From an uncultured Roseivivax sp. (lineage in GTDB: Bacteria; Pseudomonadota; Alphaproteobacteria; Rhodobacterales; Rhodobacteraceae), in assembly GCA_964612785.1 (NCBI GenBank), contig CAZTEV010000004.1, positions 1 to 44,308 of the forward strand: 44,308 bases of DNA, read 5' to 3'. Under the pieces are notes generated by a model. The model was not told where the DNA came from. It did no database searches and was given only the letters and a program-made list of their open reading frames with translations. Position numbers and translations under genes: made by a program. Below, piece by piece: positions 38,445-44,308 of the stretch. How positions within the stretch are numbered: position 1 is the first letter of the stretch; each line of letters begins with the position of its first letter.

Positions 38445-40247
38445 TCAGCCAAGTCCAAAGAGCGCCAGGAGCGGCAGCACCAGAAGGAAGCCCATATCGC
38501 CCATGCCGCCGCCATCTCCGCCGCCGCCACCGCCGCTCTTTTCCTCTTCCTCCTCCTCGTCCTCTTCCTCGGCGTTCTGCGCCTGCGGCGCGGGCGCGCT
38601 CGTGGTCATCAGCGCCGCCACATCGTCCCCCGAGATGGCGGGCGCTTCCTCGGCTACCGGTTGCGCTTCGGGTTCAGGCGCGGCCTCGGGCTCGGGCACG
38701 ACGTTTTGCGGATCGGCATCGGCCTCGCGCATCACCTCTGCGAAGTCGTCCGTCGCGGTGAAGCCGTCGATGACCACATGCATGATCTCTCCGGGCTTCA
38801 GATCGGCGATCAGCACGCCATCCTGGATCGCGTCCTCAAGAGGGATCTCGGTCAGCACTGCGTCGGAGCTGTTGTCGCCCGGGGATTGCCCGTCCTCGAC
38901 GCCCAGAACCCTGATCGTCGCCGAGGAGATGGAGGTGAACATCTGGGTCAAGTCGATCTCTTCGACGGCCTGGGTGTCGCTGATCGAGGCGATGAAGAAC
39001 ACGACCTCGTCCTCGCCGTAGAAGCCATGCACATCCGCCGTCTCACCCACAGCCTCGGTCTCGCGACTGTCGGCGTCGAAATCGAGGATGGCCTTTCCGG
39101 GCAGGCTGTCCGACATCATCGAGAACATCTCGCCCGGCGTGGTCAGCTCTTCGTAGGTGAAGCCTTCGCAGAGCGTGTTGGCGGTGTTTTGCAGAAGCGG
39201 CCAGACCTGCGCCTGATCGACGCCCATATAGACCATCTCCTCGAGAGTGTTCAGCATCTCGTGGGACTGGTACAGGCCGTAATCGTCTTCGCGGTCGTAA
39301 TGGCCTGAATTTCCTGCCTGATTCCACTCGGTCACATAGACGTCGATATCGTCGAACTCCTCGCCCCAGGTCTGTTCGACCATGTCGAGCTGGAAGGTGC
39401 GGCTGCCGGGATTGACGCTGCCCTTGGAGTAGAGGTGCGTCACGACGCCATCGACGGCGTCCTTCGCTTCGTCGGTTTCGAAGGAGTGCAGGATCAGCTC
39501 GTTCGCCACCAGCGTCCAGTTAATGGAGCCCGAGGAACCCACGATCTCGTCGCCGAAATCGGTGCCGTAATCGGCGTTCAGCGCAGCGACGATGTCGTCG
39601 GCATTATCGTATTCGGCGTAGTCGTCGGTCAGCGAGGCGTAGTTGTAATTGTAGCCCGATTGCACGATCAGATCGATCTCCGCCGCTTCGGGATGCTCGT
39701 CCGCCATAAACGACAGCTCGTCGTCGATGATGCGCGTCATCTCGGCGGCGAGGCGGCCATATTCGACCGACGACATCTCGCCCGAGCCCCAGTATTCGTT
39801 GCCGATCTCGAAGGCGTCGATGGTCGCATCGCCATAGACGCCGCTGACCACGTCGTTGACGAAGCCGCGCAGGGCGTCCTCGTCGAGGTCAACGTAGCGG
39901 TCGCCGTTTTCATCCGTCTCTTCGGACAGGAAGTTGCGCGTAGGCAGCACGATGACCGCTGACAGCCCCTCCTCTGCGGCGAAGGACATGAAGTCCGACA
40001 GCGAGATGAAGGCGCATTCCTCGCCCTCCTCGTCCACCTTGATCTCGGCGTCTGGGTTGGTGATGTCGAAGTAGTTCTCGGTCAGCGAGCCGCCGGGATA
40101 GCGCAGCGAGGTGACGCCCAGATCCTCGACCAGCTCGGCGAAGGCCGTCTCGTCGCTCAGGTCGTCGCGGGAGGCCAGGATGTTGCCGCCGAAATGCGCC
40201 TCGGTAAATGTGGCGTCGAGTGCCTCATGTGCGGTCAGAGTTACCAT
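38445..40247 (-). CDS. clan GH-A glycoside hydrolase-like protein with acidic linker and Gly-rich hydrophobic C-terminal tail
   Basis: SLRYPGGS, FEIGNEYWG (N150-E151, acid/base-like), VTHLY, VYVTEWN (E307, nucleophile-like), resembling GH51/GH79. Tail EEEEEEKSGGGGGGDGGGMGDMGFLLVLPLLALFGLG. RBS GAGGTG. Confidence 0.7.
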   Translation of the reverse strand: MVTLTAHEALDATFTEAHFGGNILASRDDLSDETAFAELVEDLGVTSLRYPGGSLTENYFDITNPDAEIKVDEEGEECAFISLSDFMSFAAEEGLSAVIVLPTRNFLSEETDENGDRYVDLDEDALRGFVNDVVSGVYGDATIDAFEIGNEYWGSGEMSSVEYGRLAAEMTRIIDDELSFMADEHPEAAEIDLIVQSGYNYNYASLTDDYAEYDNADDIVAALNADYGTDFGDEIVGSSGSINWTLVANELILHSFETDEAKDAVDGVVTHLYSKGSVNPGSRTFQLDMVEQTWGEEFDDIDVYVTEWNQAGNSGHYDREDDYGLYQSHEMLNTLEEMVYMGVDQAQVWPLLQNTANTLCEGFTYEELTTPGEMFSMMSDSLPGKAILDFDADSRETEAVGETADVHGFYGEDEVVFFIASISDTQAVEEIDLTQMFTSISSATIRVLGVEDGQSPGDNSSDAVLTEIPLEDAIQDGVLIADLKPGEIMHVVIDGFTATDDFAEVMREADADPQNVVPEPEAAPEPEAQPVAEEAPAISGDDVAALMTTSAPAPQAQNAEEEDEEEEEEKSGGGGGGDGGGMGDMGFLLVLPLLALFGLG

Positions 40248-40998: not shown

Positions 40999-41511
40999 AT
41001 GACGACACCCAAGCTTCCGACCCTGCTTTCGCTGGCCTCGGCAGTCTGTCTCTCGCTGGTGGGCGCGCAAGCCCAGGCCGAGACGCTGACCAGCGATCTG
41101 ACCTACCGCATCGTCGCGGCTGCCGAAGACGGCACCGAGGCCCTGATCGACCGCGACAGCGTGCGTCCGGGCGAGATGCTGCAGTTTGAAATCACCCATG
41201 CCAACGGCACCGAAGCCGACATCGAAGGTCTGAGCGTCGCGCTGCCCGTGCCCGCAGGCGTGACGGTGGTGCTTGGCGCGCAGACGTCTTCCGTGCCAGC
41301 CGCATTCGAGGTGCAGGCCGAGATGGATCCCGAGACCCCGGGTCTCGAATGGTCGGCGCTGCCCGCCTCCCGCACCGTGATCGACGCCGATGGAACGGCG
41401 CGCACCGAACCCCTTCCGGCCGAGGCGGTGACCGCCGTTCGCTGGAACTTCGAATCCGCTCTGGCGAGCGGTGAGACCGCCCTCAACGCCTATCGGGTGG
41501 TCGTCAACTGA
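40999..41511 (+). CDS. secreted single-domain DUF11-like protein (lacks the terminal strands)
   Basis: RBS GAAAGGA, signal peptide ending AQAQA, VRPGEMLQFEITHAN...LSVALPVPAG...VRWNF..ALASGETALNAYRVVVN. Confidence 0.75.
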   Translation: MTTPKLPTLLSLASAVCLSLVGAQAQAETLTSDLTYRIVAAAEDGTEALIDRDSVRPGEMLQFEITHANGTEADIEGLSVALPVPAGVTVVLGAQTSSVPAAFEVQAEMDPETPGLEWSALPASRTVIDADGTARTEPLPAEAVTAVRWNFESALASGETALNAYRVVVN

Positions 41512-41570: not shown

Positions 41571-44192
41571 ATGGATAACCCTGTGAAACATCGCACCTTC
41601 TTCCGCACGACCAGCGCGCTTGCGCTGGCCTCCGTCCTGGGGGTCGCCGCACATGCCGCGACGCCCGAGGCGGGCTCCGTCATCGGCAACCAGGCCACCG
41701 CGACCTATGTGAACGGCGCGGGCGACACGATCACCGTGACCTCGAACAAGGTCGAGACCGTGGTCCAGCAGATCGCGGGTCTCTTGCTGACCGCCGACAA
41801 CAGCGAAGAGATCGCGCCGGGCGGCAAGGCCTTCCTGCCGCACATCGTGACCAACACCGGTAACGGCGCGGACGCGTTCGACCTGACCGCTGTCGAAGGC
41901 TCGGGCGATTTCGACTTCGCCTCGGTCGTCATCTACGCCGATGCCGACATGGACGGTGTGGCCGACAACGCAACGCCCATCACCGAGACCCCGGTCCTGG
42001 CCGCGGGCGAGCGCTTCGGCATCGTCATCGTGACCACCACGCCCGCCACCGCAACGGCAGGCCAGACCGAGACGGTCACCCTGACCGCCACCAGCCAGCT
42101 CGACGGCACCGAGACCGTCACCAACCTCGACACCCTGACCGTCGCCACCGGCGCGATCATGGAACTCGTCAAGTCGATGAGCGTCGACAAGAGCGCGGGC
42201 GACCCGACCATCGTCGATGCGGGCGACACGGTCACCGTGACGCTGACCTACTCCAACACCGGCCTGTCGGCCTCGACCGGCTACACCGTCAGCGACGTGA
42301 TCGACGCGCGTCTGCCCTACACGCTCAGCTCGGCCCAGTGGTCGGACGCGACCGTGGCAGGCGGGCTCGATGAATCGAACGGCGCGCTGGTCGATGCCAC
42401 CAACGGCGTGGGCGAGACCATCGCCTGGCAGGCCGATGCGGCCTCCAACACCGTGCAGTTCGAAATCTCCAGCGTCGCCCCCGGCCGGACCGGCAGCGTG
42501 ACGTTCGAGGCCACCATCGGCGCGCTGGCCGAAGCGGGCCTGATCGAGAACACCGCGACGCAGCTCGACGCGTCCGGCGCCTATCCGAACTCGAACACCG
42601 CATCGGTGGAAGTCGATGCGCAATACGTTCACGTCATCGACGACAGCTTCACGCAATCCGACCTGTCGGTTCTGCGCTCCTCGACCGATGACGACGCGGC
42701 GAATGACAGCGTGCTCGAGACCACCGATACCGCGCAGGGCGGCACGGTCGTCTTCGAATTCGTGCTCGGCAACGACTCGAACCAGAACGATGCCTACACC
42801 CTCGACGTGAGCAACCTCGACTTCCCGGCAGGGACCACCTTCCGCATCGTCGGCGCCGATGGCGCAACGCCCATCGTCGGTGAAATCCCGCTCGCGGCCG
42901 GCACAGGCACCAAGGTCAACCTGATCGCGACCCTGCCCGCCAACACCGCACCCGCGGCAGCAGGCACGACCAACTACACCGCGACGATCGAGGCCACCTC
43001 GACCCAGAGCGGCAACGTCAACACCTCGACGGCCGAGTTCACCGGCGCGGTCCTGGCGGCGACGGTCGACCTGACCAATGCGGTCGCAGGCTCCGAAGGC
43101 ACGGGCGACAACCCCGACAACGCGGGCACCCCGTGGGTCACCACGACCGCCGATCCGGGCGAGACCGTGATCTACCCGCTCGAGCTTGCGAACCAGGGCA
43201 CCACGTCGGACAACTACAACCTGACGCTGGCCGCTCCGCTGCCTGCCGGTTGGACCTATGAGTTCCAGCTTGCCGACGGCACGGTCGTGACCAACACCGG
43301 CACCATCCCCGCAGGACAGAGCGCGACGATCAACCTCGTCATCACGCCGGCGGAAGATGAAGTTCCGGGCACCACGTCCTTCGAGATCGTCGCCACCTCG
43401 CCCATCTCGGGCCAGAGCGACAGCATCGTCGACGCGCTGACCGTCAACACCATCGTCGACCTCGCGATCTCCGCGGATCAGACGACCCAGGCGGCCCCGG
43501 GCGGCGTCGTGGACATCCTCCACACCGTGACGAACGAAGGCAACATCACGATCACCGAAGGTGCGCTGACCCAGACCGGCCTGTCGCAGTTCTCGGGCGT
43601 GATCTACCTCGACCAGAACGGTGACGGCGTGCTCGATCCGACCGATCCGGTGATCGACAACATCGACGACATCGCAGGCGGCATCGCCCCGGGTGACACG
43701 GTGCAGCTGATCTACCGCGTCCAGGTGGGCTCCGTGCCCGGCGTCGCGGAAACCGGCACGATCGCAATCGACACGGCGCTCAACAGCGGTGCCGCAACCG
43801 ATGGCGACACGCTCGACAACGCGGTGGAAGACCAGGTCGTGGTCGTCTCGGGTGACGTGACCCTGACCAAGTACCAGGCCATCGACCCCGATTGCGACGG
43901 CAACCCCGGCGTCTTCACCAAGGAGCGTCAGGCCGTCGAGCCCAACCAGTGCATCCGCTACCGGATCGTTGCGGCCAACACCGGCACCGCCTCTGTCGAC
44001 AATGTCGTCATCAAGGACATCGTGCCGGCCTACACCGCTTACGAGACCTGCGGCGCGCTTTGCGACGCGGCTGTCACCCCGGCGACCGGCACGCTGAACG
44101 TGACCGGCAACCCGCTGATCGAGAGCACCCATGGCGCGCTCGTCCCCGGTGCCGATGCCTCGCTCGAGTTCACGGTCCGCGTCGATCCCTGA
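41571..44192 (+). CDS. large secreted DUF11/Ig-like repeat surface protein (putative filament subunit or adhesin)
   Basis: Signal peptide ending AAHA. Thr/Ala/Val/Asp-rich. Repeated PG.....(h)..N.G...D modules, DUF11 motifs (LVKS...GDTVTVTLTYSNTG...VSD...PG..GSVTF...IENTA) and DxDxDG Ca-loop-like motifs. Start may be GTG at 41583. Confidence 0.85.
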   Translation: MDNPVKHRTFFRTTSALALASVLGVAAHAATPEAGSVIGNQATATYVNGAGDTITVTSNKVETVVQQIAGLLLTADNSEEIAPGGKAFLPHIVTNTGNGADAFDLTAVEGSGDFDFASVVIYADADMDGVADNATPITETPVLAAGERFGIVIVTTTPATATAGQTETVTLTATSQLDGTETVTNLDTLTVATGAIMELVKSMSVDKSAGDPTIVDAGDTVTVTLTYSNTGLSASTGYTVSDVIDARLPYTLSSAQWSDATVAGGLDESNGALVDATNGVGETIAWQADAASNTVQFEISSVAPGRTGSVTFEATIGALAEAGLIENTATQLDASGAYPNSNTASVEVDAQYVHVIDDSFTQSDLSVLRSSTDDDAANDSVLETTDTAQGGTVVFEFVLGNDSNQNDAYTLDVSNLDFPAGTTFRIVGADGATPIVGEIPLAAGTGTKVNLIATLPANTAPAAAGTTNYTATIEATSTQSGNVNTSTAEFTGAVLAATVDLTNAVAGSEGTGDNPDNAGTPWVTTTADPGETVIYPLELANQGTTSDNYNLTLAAPLPAGWTYEFQLADGTVVTNTGTIPAGQSATINLVITPAEDEVPGTTSFEIVATSPISGQSDSIVDALTVNTIVDLAISADQTTQAAPGGVVDILHTVTNEGNITITEGALTQTGLSQFSGVIYLDQNGDGVLDPTDPVIDNIDDIAGGIAPGDTVQLIYRVQVGSVPGVAETGTIAIDTALNSGAATDGDTLDNAVEDQVVVVSGDVTLTKYQAIDPDCDGNPGVFTKERQAVEPNQCIRYRIVAANTGTASVDNVVIKDIVPAYTAYETCGALCDAAVTPATGTLNVTGNPLIESTHGALVPGADASLEFTVRVDP

Positions 44193-44210
44193 TCGCTGAC
44201 ACGAAAGAAA

Positions 44211-44241
44211 GCTCTCCCGCCGCCCAGGCGCGCGGGGGAGC
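44211..44241 (+). other. GC-rich hairpin after the DUF11 gene (no U-tract)
   Basis: GCTCTCCCGCCGCC-ca-GGCGCGCGGGGGAGC, an imperfect stem. Confidence 0.45.
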
Positions 44242-44308
44242 CCCCTCTGCCCGAGATTTTCTCAGATTTCCGAAGGCCTCACCAGCCGCCCCGCCTTTTC
44301 AGCCCCCC

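What the first reader, a model, noticed from the sequence alone, without database searches (positions are those of the whole stretch)
41571..44192. Split DUF11 domain suggests a head-to-tail, possibly isopeptide-crosslinked pilus subunit
Seen: the internal DUF11 domain is complete: LVKS (K201)...GDTVTVTLTYSNTG...VSDVI (D242)...PGRTGSVTFEATI-GALAEAGLIENTAT (N327)...SNTASVEV. The C-terminal domain has the same first part, LTKY (K767)...PNQCIRYRIVAANTG...IKDIVP (D816)...PGADASLEFTVRVDP, then stops, lacking the last two strands. The mature N-terminus matches that missing piece: ATPEAGSVIGNQATATY (N40)...TSNKVETVV. Known: donor-strand complementation builds chaperone-usher and several other filaments, and Lys/Asn with a catalytic acidic residue forms spontaneous isopeptide bonds in Ig-like adhesin domains. 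Inference: the N-terminal hairpin of one subunit completes the C-terminal domain of the next, with a possible intermolecular K767-N40 bond catalysed by D816, giving a sortase-independent covalent fibre in a Gram-negative bacterium. Ca-loop-like motifs (DADMDGVAD, DQNGDGVLD) and four Cys in the last domain would stiffen it.
Basis: partly seen in the sequence, partly recalled or inferred. Interest (0 to 1): 0.85.

Follow-up and report, generated by a model that had tools for sequence, protein, structure and literature searches.

The report
Head-to-tail covalent pilus shaft subunit
This bacterial gene encodes a likely secreted protein whose last domain lacks two strands that are predicted to come from the front end of the next copy, so copies would plug together and likely lock by a self-made chemical bond into a surface fibre between a predicted adhesive tip and a likely outer-membrane anchor, an apparently undescribed kind of pilus.

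Summary
Observation confirmed. The 873-residue protein has a complete DUF11/CLIPPER domain (K201, D242, N327) and a C-terminal one that stops two strands short (K767, D816); its N-terminal hairpin (N40) has no confident place in the monomer model. The split triad is kept in 128 of 131 distant homologues. Two natural tandem fusions join acceptor directly to hairpin, and a complex model docks the hairpin in the register of the intact domain (0.84; best control 0.00). The gene sits in a conserved cluster: acceptor-only adhesins keeping Lys and Asp, a donor-only 1,900-residue probable outer-membrane barrel, and a 170-residue acceptor-like protein without Lys or Asp. Best reading: shaft subunit of a sortase-independent, covalently locked fibre (0.62). 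Complementation between chains is well supported; the bond, repeated shaft copies and export route are inferred. Against: no donor-acceptor covariation signal, no direct profile match of hairpin to domain tail, Lys-Asn distance not measured. Donor strand plus isopeptide lock is published for Clostridium BsaA; nine literature searches found no description of this system. The scan noted the same system before in other genomes.

The parts
40999..41511 (+). 170-aa gene for a small acceptor-like DUF11 protein with a signal-peptide-like start, ending at the same strand as the shaft's last domain, without the Lys and Asp; candidate chaperone or reversible cap of donor hairpins (inferred)
   Evidence: profile match to the acceptor alignment 90%, E 1.7e-6; Asp column Ala/Gly/Leu/Val in 62 of 62, Lys column Lys in at most 4 of 62; present in 62 of 65 loci; Atlas look-alikes carry DUF11 in 29-44% of members
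41571..44192 (+). 873-aa shaft subunit gene: signal peptide, donor hairpin, five complete Ig-like domains, incomplete acceptor domain
41571..41657 (+). likely Sec signal peptide, residues 1-29, ending A-H-A (cleavage site inferred from the A-x-A rule, no predictor run)
   Evidence: sequence; helix 13-27 in the model
41658..41768 (+). donor hairpin, residues 30-66, with N40 (codon 41688-41690) and S58-N59
   Evidence: N40 in 63 of 63 shaft genes and 129 of 131 distant homologues; low-confidence free hairpin in the monomer model; forms nearly the whole interface in the complex model
41769..42149 (+). domain 1 (67-193), complete Ig-like sandwich with acidic loop D124-D132 (41940-41966), calcium binding untested
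   Evidence: model strands 71-191, pLDDT 83-92; homologous to domains 3 and 5; D124 129 of 131, G129 131 of 131
42150..42617 (+). domain 2 (194-349), complete DUF11/CLIPPER domain, K201 (42171), D242 (42294), N327 (42549); intramolecular bond predicted
   Evidence: PF01345 3-113 of 114, 34.5 bits; triad in 123 of 131
42618..43847 (+). domains 3-5 (350-759), complete Ig-like stalk domains; domain 4 is NEW3-like; acidic loop D681-D689 (43611-43637) in domain 5
   Evidence: D681 131 of 131
43848..44189 (+). acceptor domain (760-873): CLIPPER fold without its last two strands, K767 (43869), D816 (44016), likely disulfide C775-C794
   Evidence: PF01345 10-84 of 114; 9IFR Z 9.1, rmsd 1.9, 91 aligned; Lys and Asp invariant in 56 acceptors, 20 of them from adhesins
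44193..44308 (+). spacer before the base gene; the base gene's start and donor hairpin are lost in a 100-N assembly gap just past the window end; the gene continues to the end of contig C4 and into contig C1
   Evidence: the 95%-identical relative G005 has the intact base gene with a donor hairpin at residues 53-89 (E 1.3e-14)

Best explanation
The protein carries a complete CLIPPER domain, a C-terminal CLIPPER domain that lacks its last two strands and an N-terminal hairpin predicted to supply them, and is likely the repeated shaft subunit of a surface fibre whose subunits would lock by a spontaneous Lys767-Asn40 bond between chains. Steps: (1) export to the periplasm by Sec (inferred from the signal peptide); (2) the 170-aa acceptor-like protein would cap free donor hairpins without bonding to them (inferred, untested); (3) an acceptor-only adhesin starts the chain, the first shaft's hairpin completes it, and each further shaft completes the one before, so all chains run N to C from tip to cell (donor/acceptor distribution shown by sequence, binding predicted, order inferred); (4) completing the fold brings Asn40 into the place of Asn327 beside Lys767 and Asp816, and the bond forms as in the solved CLIPPER domain (register predicted, bond inferred); (5) the donor hairpin of the 1,900-aa probable outer-membrane barrel holds or ends the chain, and the barrel would be anchor and exit pore (inferred).
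For: Truncation at the same point in 123 of 131 homologues. Split triad in 128 of 131 at a median 31% identity, against 123 of 131 for the intact domain and at most 11% for other lysines. Natural tandem fusions P0122 (four junctions) and P0128 (one) run from acceptor straight into a donor-like hairpin, Lys, Asp and Asn kept at all five, with no signal peptide between; a Pfam DUF11 match crosses one junction. Monomer model: six confident domains and a hairpin at pLDDT about 50 or less. Complex of 756-873 with 30-192: score 0.84, best of 3 controls 0.00, a mark reached by 116 of 157 solved complexes and 2 of 215 mismatched pairs; runs agree in at least 89% of contacts, partner pLDDT at least 91. 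Of the top 10 covarying tail-body pairs of intact domain 2, 9 can be mapped to the split domain: 3 are among the model's 25 best contacts (0.17 expected; 0-1 in six shifted registers) and 8 have both residues in the interface. Half-only partners cannot close on themselves: 10 complete adhesins end in an acceptor and have no N-terminal donor hit, 51 large proteins start with a donor and have no C-terminal acceptor. Base donors have Ser for Asn in 4 of 50, at least 3 separate changes, against 0 of 63 shafts, and those four shafts keep Lys and Asp, as expected if the shaft's Lys also serves shaft donors. Precedent for the chemistry: CLIPPER K715-N806 with D748 (PMC12617251), BsaA N35-K74 with E56 (PMC11580942).
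Against: No donor-acceptor covariation: no pair above z 4 among 3,366, while control blocks had 6 and 7. No direct profile match of hairpin to the domain-2 tail. The pairs N40-K767 and N40-D816 are not among the 25 best contacts listed, though all three residues are in the interface lists, and no distance was available. The two fragments are halves of one known fold, so the pass may come from likeness to solved domains, and it cannot tell between-chain from within-chain binding. The acceptor alone is modelled at pLDDT 90.7, so the model gives no sign that it is unstable alone. The barrel rests on sub-threshold Pfam hits (24.1 bits against a cut-off of 28.7) and an Atlas lead of 0.89. No fibre, bond or expression was observed.
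Confidence: 0.62

Rival explanations
1. Modular adhesin, not a polymer: tip, one shaft and base join 1:1:1 by the same complementation and bonds, giving one long fibrillar adhesin in three pieces. Selectivity of each junction would stop shaft-shaft joining.
For: One shaft gene, one tip and one base in this genome; eight other clusters have 2-3 different short subunits in a row, which could be a fixed order; the fusion proteins hold a fixed number of units.
Against: The shaft's own donor and acceptor dock in the model; shafts keep Lys and Asp where the base donor has lost Asn; shaft donors and shaft acceptors are joined to each other in the fusions.
Confidence: 0.2
2. Head-to-tail fibre held by strand complementation only; the three residues are kept for packing or react too slowly to matter.
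For: Some DUF11 domains lack the bond (PMC12617251); four base donors and one short subunit have Ser at the Asn position; the BsaA N35A mutant still formed SDS-resistant oligomers until heated (PMC11580942).
Against: The split triad is as well kept as the intact one (128 against 123 of 131) and Lys and Asp were lost together in both proteins that lost either; a buried unreacted lysine has no other obvious use (inference).
Confidence: 0.1
3. The chain closes on itself: a circularly permuted domain that makes a covalent ring of six domains, or a small cyclic oligomer.
For: The fragment model cannot exclude it; six domains might bend into a ring.
Against: The best of five monomer models left the hairpin at low confidence; tip and base proteins carry one half only; 326-340 aa relatives have too few domains and almost no linker for easy closure (inference).
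Confidence: 0.05
4. An ordinary free adhesin: the last domain is stable as it is and the N-terminal stretch is an unrelated sorting or linker segment.
For: Acceptor alone models at pLDDT 90.7; no covariation and no direct profile match.
Against: Fusions, triad conservation, complex register and the half-only partner genes.
Confidence: 0.03

Closest known systems
CLIPPER / DUF11 (PF01345) intramolecular isopeptide domain, PDB 9IFR (PMC12617251; passages and section 2.4 read)
   Same: Fold (Z 9.1, rmsd 1.9), Lys-Asp-Asn order, use in stalks of Gram-negative adhesins; domain 2 is a complete member.
   Different: Described as a bond within one chain; the main text has no occurrence of 'donor'. Here the last domain is cut before the Asn strand and the Asn lies at the N-terminus.
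BsaA of Clostridium perfringens, TasA family, 'exchange and lock' (PMC11580942; passages read)
   Same: N-terminal donor carries the Asn; the acceptor carries Lys and the catalytic acid; self-made bond between subunits, no sortase needed.
   Different: Gram-positive, TasA-like subunit, Glu catalyst, SipW processing. Here a CnaA-like CLIPPER fold, a two-strand donor, Asp, a six-domain subunit, and dedicated tip, small protein and probable outer-membrane barrel.
Chaperone-usher pili (FimH/PapG tip, FimA/PapA rod, PapH/FimI terminator, usher); general knowledge plus passages in PMC11821415
   Same: Incomplete Ig fold completed by the next subunit's N-terminus; acceptor-only tip; small periplasmic partner; large outer-membrane protein in the cluster.
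   Different: No usher or PapD-type Pfam hit; two donated strands; predicted covalent lock; the barrel protein itself carries a donor; the small protein looks like an acceptor, not a strand donor.
Archaeal thread, Saci_0406 (PMC9715654; passages read)
   Same: Head-to-tail donor-strand filament with a proposed bond between subunits and a cap protein that has only one half.
   Different: Proposed bond joins the N-terminal amino group to Asn two subunits away; archaeal, different subunit, no outer membrane.
Sortase-dependent pili (RrgB, BcpA, SpaA); fold hits, mechanism from general knowledge
   Same: CnaA-like domains with self-made Lys-Asn bonds; covalent shaft.
   Different: There the links between subunits are made by sortase at an LPXTG signal; this protein ends at the last strand with no such signal.
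TTHA1873 of Thermus thermophilus, PDB 7WRK (fold-search row only; paper not read)
   Same: Small hypothetical protein that aligns with 108 residues of the acceptor model (Z 8.3).
   Different: No sequence match to the small-protein alignment at E 10; whether it belongs to such a cluster was not checked.

Membership tests
CLIPPER / DUF11 domain | PF01345 match above the curated cut-off | tested here: met
   whole protein 52.7 bits, domain 2 34.5, last domain 29.8, cut-off 24.6
CLIPPER / DUF11 domain | CnaA-like beta-sandwich | tested here: met
   model of the last domain against 9IFR: Z 9.1, rmsd 1.9, 91 aligned, second of 48,161 chains and tied with the first; domain 2 was not searched alone
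CLIPPER / DUF11 domain | Lys, Asp and Asn within one domain | tested here: met
   met for domain 2 (K201, D242, N327; 123 of 131); the last domain has no Asn strand, which is the finding
CLIPPER / DUF11 domain | isopeptide bond actually formed | not testable with these tools
   needs mass spectrometry or a structure; no side-chain distances are returned
Chaperone-usher pili | incomplete Ig fold completed by the N-terminus of the next subunit | tested here: met
   predicted only; two strands, not one
Chaperone-usher pili | usher-family outer-membrane protein | tested here: not met
   no usher family among Pfam hits at E 0.01 for three whole base proteins and one fragment, none in NCBIfam; remote kinship by fold not tested
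Chaperone-usher pili | PapD/FimC-type chaperone | tested here: not met
   the small protein hits DUF11 weakly and no chaperone family at E 1; the rest of the genome was not searched for one
Sortase-dependent pili | C-terminal LPXTG-type sorting signal with membrane helix | tested here: not met
   the chain ends on the last strand
Sortase-dependent pili | pilus-specific sortase gene | not tested
   no family search was run; none appeared among the neighbour families that I identified
BsaA / TasA exchange-and-lock fibres | donor Asn, acceptor Lys and acid conserved together | tested here: met
   128 of 131; BsaA residues from PMC11580942
BsaA / TasA exchange-and-lock fibres | TasA-family sequence | tested here: not met
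   no TasA-type family in Pfam or NCBIfam at E 1 and no PDB sequence match
Type V pili | lipoprotein precursor with a lipobox cysteine | tested here: not met
   the first Cys is residue 775; the lipobox feature is from PMC9715654 passages

The most novel reading that the evidence does not exclude
A widespread, unrecognised pilus pathway of Gram-negative bacteria: subunits polymerise by two-strand complementation and weld themselves without any enzyme; a Lys/Asp-less acceptor mimic chaperones the donor end (the reverse of classic chaperones); and one giant barrel is at once pore, reversible holder and terminator, with interchangeable tip adhesins clipped on from elsewhere in the genome. It would also be a natural family of split-domain protein glues.
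Probability: 0.4. Interest if true: 0.9.

Novelty: new variant of a known kind. Interest (0 to 1): 0.78.

Why it matters
[quoted passage not shown] A fibre that joins both principles, with its own tip, chaperone-like protein and barrel, would be a new pilus family, with relatives in Pseudomonadota and Balneolota here and 607 representatives at E 1e-30 or better. It gives a testable job to many proteins annotated only as DUF11 or hypothetical, bears on how marine bacteria hold on to surfaces, and offers natural donor/acceptor pairs for protein ligation. The key test is a two-fragment mixing experiment.

Tried and rejected
Truncation artefact: rejected. PDB sequence searches with the whole protein, the acceptor profile, domain 2 and the small-protein profile found no relative (the last gave only weak adaptin-ear hits, E 0.008-0.03). 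Foldseek with the whole model returned long Ig chains at TM 0.09-0.23, uninformative; Foldseek with the acceptor gave weak pilin and carbohydrate-binding-module hits. No solved filament of this type appeared in the rows shown, which does not exclude one. Direct hairpin-versus-tail profile comparison failed. Donor-acceptor covariation gave no signal (252 rows, about 139 effective); many donor positions are nearly invariant, which limits the test. The scan of 301 genomes with the acceptor profile (42 with a match) also hits ordinary complete DUF11 domains, so it is not a count of the system; I took 8 of the 41 other genomes with matches, chosen for clustered hits. Expression: two RNA runs hold pieces of the stretch or of a relative, but contigs cannot show transcription. 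One contig joint from 41735 to 43851 in run X4 was not followed. The careful tree did not finish; the quick tree was used. Binding of the small protein to donors and the fold of the barrel were not modelled. Papers on DUF11 grappling hooks (PMC13319060), haloarchaeal tafi (PMC11821415) and a cyanobacterial DUF11 signal peptide (PMC13297417) describe other things (passages read).
Full report
What is there. The closest relative is 95% identical and is named Roseivivax sp. by its source; 345 proteins passed E 0.001 among 7,992 candidates scored. The model (56-row alignment, mean pLDDT 83.5, pTM 0.48) shows a signal-peptide helix, a hairpin (strands 43-47 and 53-57) at pLDDT about 50 or less, and six confident beta-sandwich domains. 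Domain 2 covers PF01345 (DUF11) positions 3-113 of 114; the last domain covers 10-84. DUF11 was renamed CLIPPER and shown by crystallography to hold a Lys715-Asn806 bond with Asp748 nearby (PMC12617251; passages and section 2.4 read, supplements not read). A model of the last domain alone matches that structure, 9IFR, at Z 9.1, rmsd 1.9 over 91 residues, chain range 18-110 of a 123-residue chain. If the entry is numbered from 18, which puts K767 on Lys715 (my inference), the match stops 8 residues before Asn806 and leaves the last 30 residues unmatched.

Is the truncation real and are the residues selected? Of 150 representatives listed (3,557 passed E 0.001, 607 passed 1e-30), 144 have the N-terminal hairpin, 133 the C-terminal acceptor and 131 both; 123 of the 131 end within 3 residues of the same point. 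At a median identity of 31%, K767, D816 and N40 are each kept in 129 of 131 and all three in 128; the intact triad of domain 2 is kept in 123; the other seven lysines in at most 11%. N40 is not unique among asparagines: ten are kept in 95% or more. The two acidic loops are conserved (D124 129, D681 131 of 131), calcium binding is untested, and only C775-C794 is a broadly kept pair.

Does the hairpin complete the last domain? Three lines say so. First, natural fusions: P0122 (3,865 aa) and P0128 (2,023 aa), each from one metagenome contig, are tandem repeats of the whole unit in which the acceptor's last strand continues after a few residues into a donor-like hairpin and the next domain 1, at five junctions, with Lys, Asp and Asn kept and no signal peptide between; Pfam's DUF11 match 2876-2965 crosses one junction. 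Second, a complex prediction of 756-873 with 30-192 scored 0.84 against a best control of 0.00, a mark reached by 116 of 157 solved complexes and 2 of 215 mismatched pairs; the runs agree in at least 89% of contacts and partner pLDDT is at least 91; strand 42-46 pairs with 811-815 and 58-61 with 765-769, and domain 1 hardly takes part. The halves belong to a solved fold, so the pass may come from likeness, and it cannot tell between-chain from within-chain binding. Third, the register agrees with independent covariation in intact domain 2: of its top 10 tail-body pairs 9 map to the split domain, 3 are among the model's 25 best contacts (0.17 expected, 0-1 in six shifted registers) and 8 have both residues in the interface. 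This places N40 where N327 lies. Against: the hairpin was not matched to the domain-2 tail by unconstrained profiles (best hit there in 13 of 52), donor-acceptor covariation was no higher than controls, the N40-K767 pair is not among the 25 contacts listed, and the acceptor alone is modelled confidently.

Between chains or within one? The surroundings answer this. In 65 loci (63 fetched plus two of this genome) I found 57 donor-plus-acceptor shafts, 51 large proteins with an N-terminal donor and no C-terminal acceptor, and 22 open frames with an acceptor only, of which 10 are complete adhesin-like genes of 919-1,983 aa, 11 are cut by the locus edge and one is a cut shaft. Loci without a scored base are cut contigs, broken base genes or missed the threshold. 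The adhesins carry GEVED, DUF6923, SpaA-like and whole DUF11 domains (two scanned), and Lys and Asp are invariant in an alignment of 36 shaft and 20 adhesin acceptors. The large proteins (1,900-2,400 aa) have Ig-like domains, a whole DUF11 domain, weak barrel hits below cut-off near the C-terminus and, in one Balneolota member, an OmpA domain; Atlas look-alikes are mostly unnamed, with one 'outer membrane protein' cluster at 0.89, a lead only. A 170-aa gene lies just upstream in 62 of the 65 loci; it matches the acceptor profile (90%), ends at the same strand and has no Asp in 62 of 62 and Lys in at most 4. Proteins with one half cannot close on themselves, so complementation must at least join tip to shaft and shaft to base.

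This genome. The window is the start of contig C4; a 100-N gap follows its last base. The base gene continues from C4 into C1 across a 55-base overlap, but its first 285 or so codons are missing; the relative G005 has it whole, with the donor. One acceptor-only adhesin of 1,740 aa lies on C1, on the same strand about 18 kb beyond the base, with Lys and Asp; G005 has its counterpart in the same place. The shaft is patchy: full-length in 2 of 40 relatives searched, 1 of 9 in the genus. Eight clusters picked from other Pseudomonadota repeat the plan with 18 short subunits of 326-476 aa ending in an acceptor (donor profile hit in 12), a small protein (Asn at the Asp position in 6, Asp in 2) and a 1,639-2,188 aa protein.

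Polymer or single spacer? Not shown. One clue: base donors carry Ser for Asn in 4 of 50, at least 3 separate changes on a quick tree, against 0 of 63 shafts, while those four shafts keep Lys and Asp. The base link therefore need not be covalent, and the shaft's Lys is most simply kept for shaft donors. Recent loss could give the same picture, so the weight is modest. My odds: complementation between chains 0.9, covalent bond 0.8, repeated shaft 0.7; the whole mechanism 0.62. Which side of the outer membrane the base's donor faces, and whether the fibre passes through the barrel, are open.

What is known. Donor strand plus self-made bond is published for BsaA of Clostridium perfringens (N35, K74, E56; PMC11580942, passages) and proposed with other chemistry for the archaeal thread (PMC9715654, passages); self-crosslinking spore fibres and designed split isopeptide proteins appeared as search listings only (PMC13111695, 10.64898/2026.08.13.744004). 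Tip, rod and terminator logic is that of chaperone-usher pili (general knowledge), but no usher or PapD-type family was hit. Nine searches listed no paper on a split-DUF11 fibre; I saw only the listed rows, the library lacks most subscription papers, and the supplements of PMC12617251 may list such proteins. Eight earlier notes of this scan describe the same system in other genomes; my reading was written down before I saw them, they are unchecked, and I count them as no support. None was found by sequence or in this genome.

Verdict. It is not a member of any pilus family tested, but works like a donor-strand pilus with a BsaA-type lock: a new variant of a known kind, interest 0.78.

Noticed in passing
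P0122 and P0128 (protein ids): Tandem fusions of the shaft unit (four and two units, one shortened) that end in DUF7933 repeats and a short twice-repeated acidic motif; they keep an N-terminal donor-like hairpin but have no free acceptor at the end.
   Followed up: partly
L004-L058 flanks; G005 in L073:7570-11653; G000 C1: A LuxR-type response regulator (45 loci), a PAS hybrid histidine kinase (40 loci) and a small molybdopterin-oxidoreductase-like protein (31 loci) travel with the cluster; a likely regulator of it.
   Followed up: partly
L024:18621-19355 and relatives; L073:1857-2717 (-): A 244-aa protein with no Pfam family lies just after the base gene in about 30 loci (family in 34 loci); possibly a fifth member of the system.
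   Followed up: no
G000 C1:46500-64700; L073:3263-18638: Glycosyltransferase genes (families 2 and 1/4), a large membrane protein and sugar-related genes lie between base and tip genes in this genome and G005; possible surface polysaccharide or fibre glycosylation.
   Followed up: partly
window 38445-40247 (-): 600-aa very acidic protein with a weak glycoside-hydrolase-like hit (NCBIfam E 0.025) and a C-terminal glycine run followed by a hydrophobic tail, like a sorting signal; divergent from the cluster and present at the same place in G005.
   Followed up: no
L019 and L030, just after the shaft gene: The base gene is broken (open frames of 277 and 896 aa) in two Roseobacter-group genomes whose shaft is intact.
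   Followed up: no
L048 and L053: One genome holds two separate copies of the cluster on different contigs.
   Followed up: no
PDB 7WRK and 5MKC (fold-search rows): The acceptor model matches the Thermus hypothetical protein TTHA1873 (Z 8.3) and the RrgA Jo.In complex; the first may be a solved member of such a cluster, the second is recalled as an engineered split isopeptide pair.
   Followed up: partly
window 41735 to 43851, run X4: One low-depth contig joins the donor region to the start of the acceptor with 24 other letters between; perhaps a short relative or a chance alignment.
   Followed up: no
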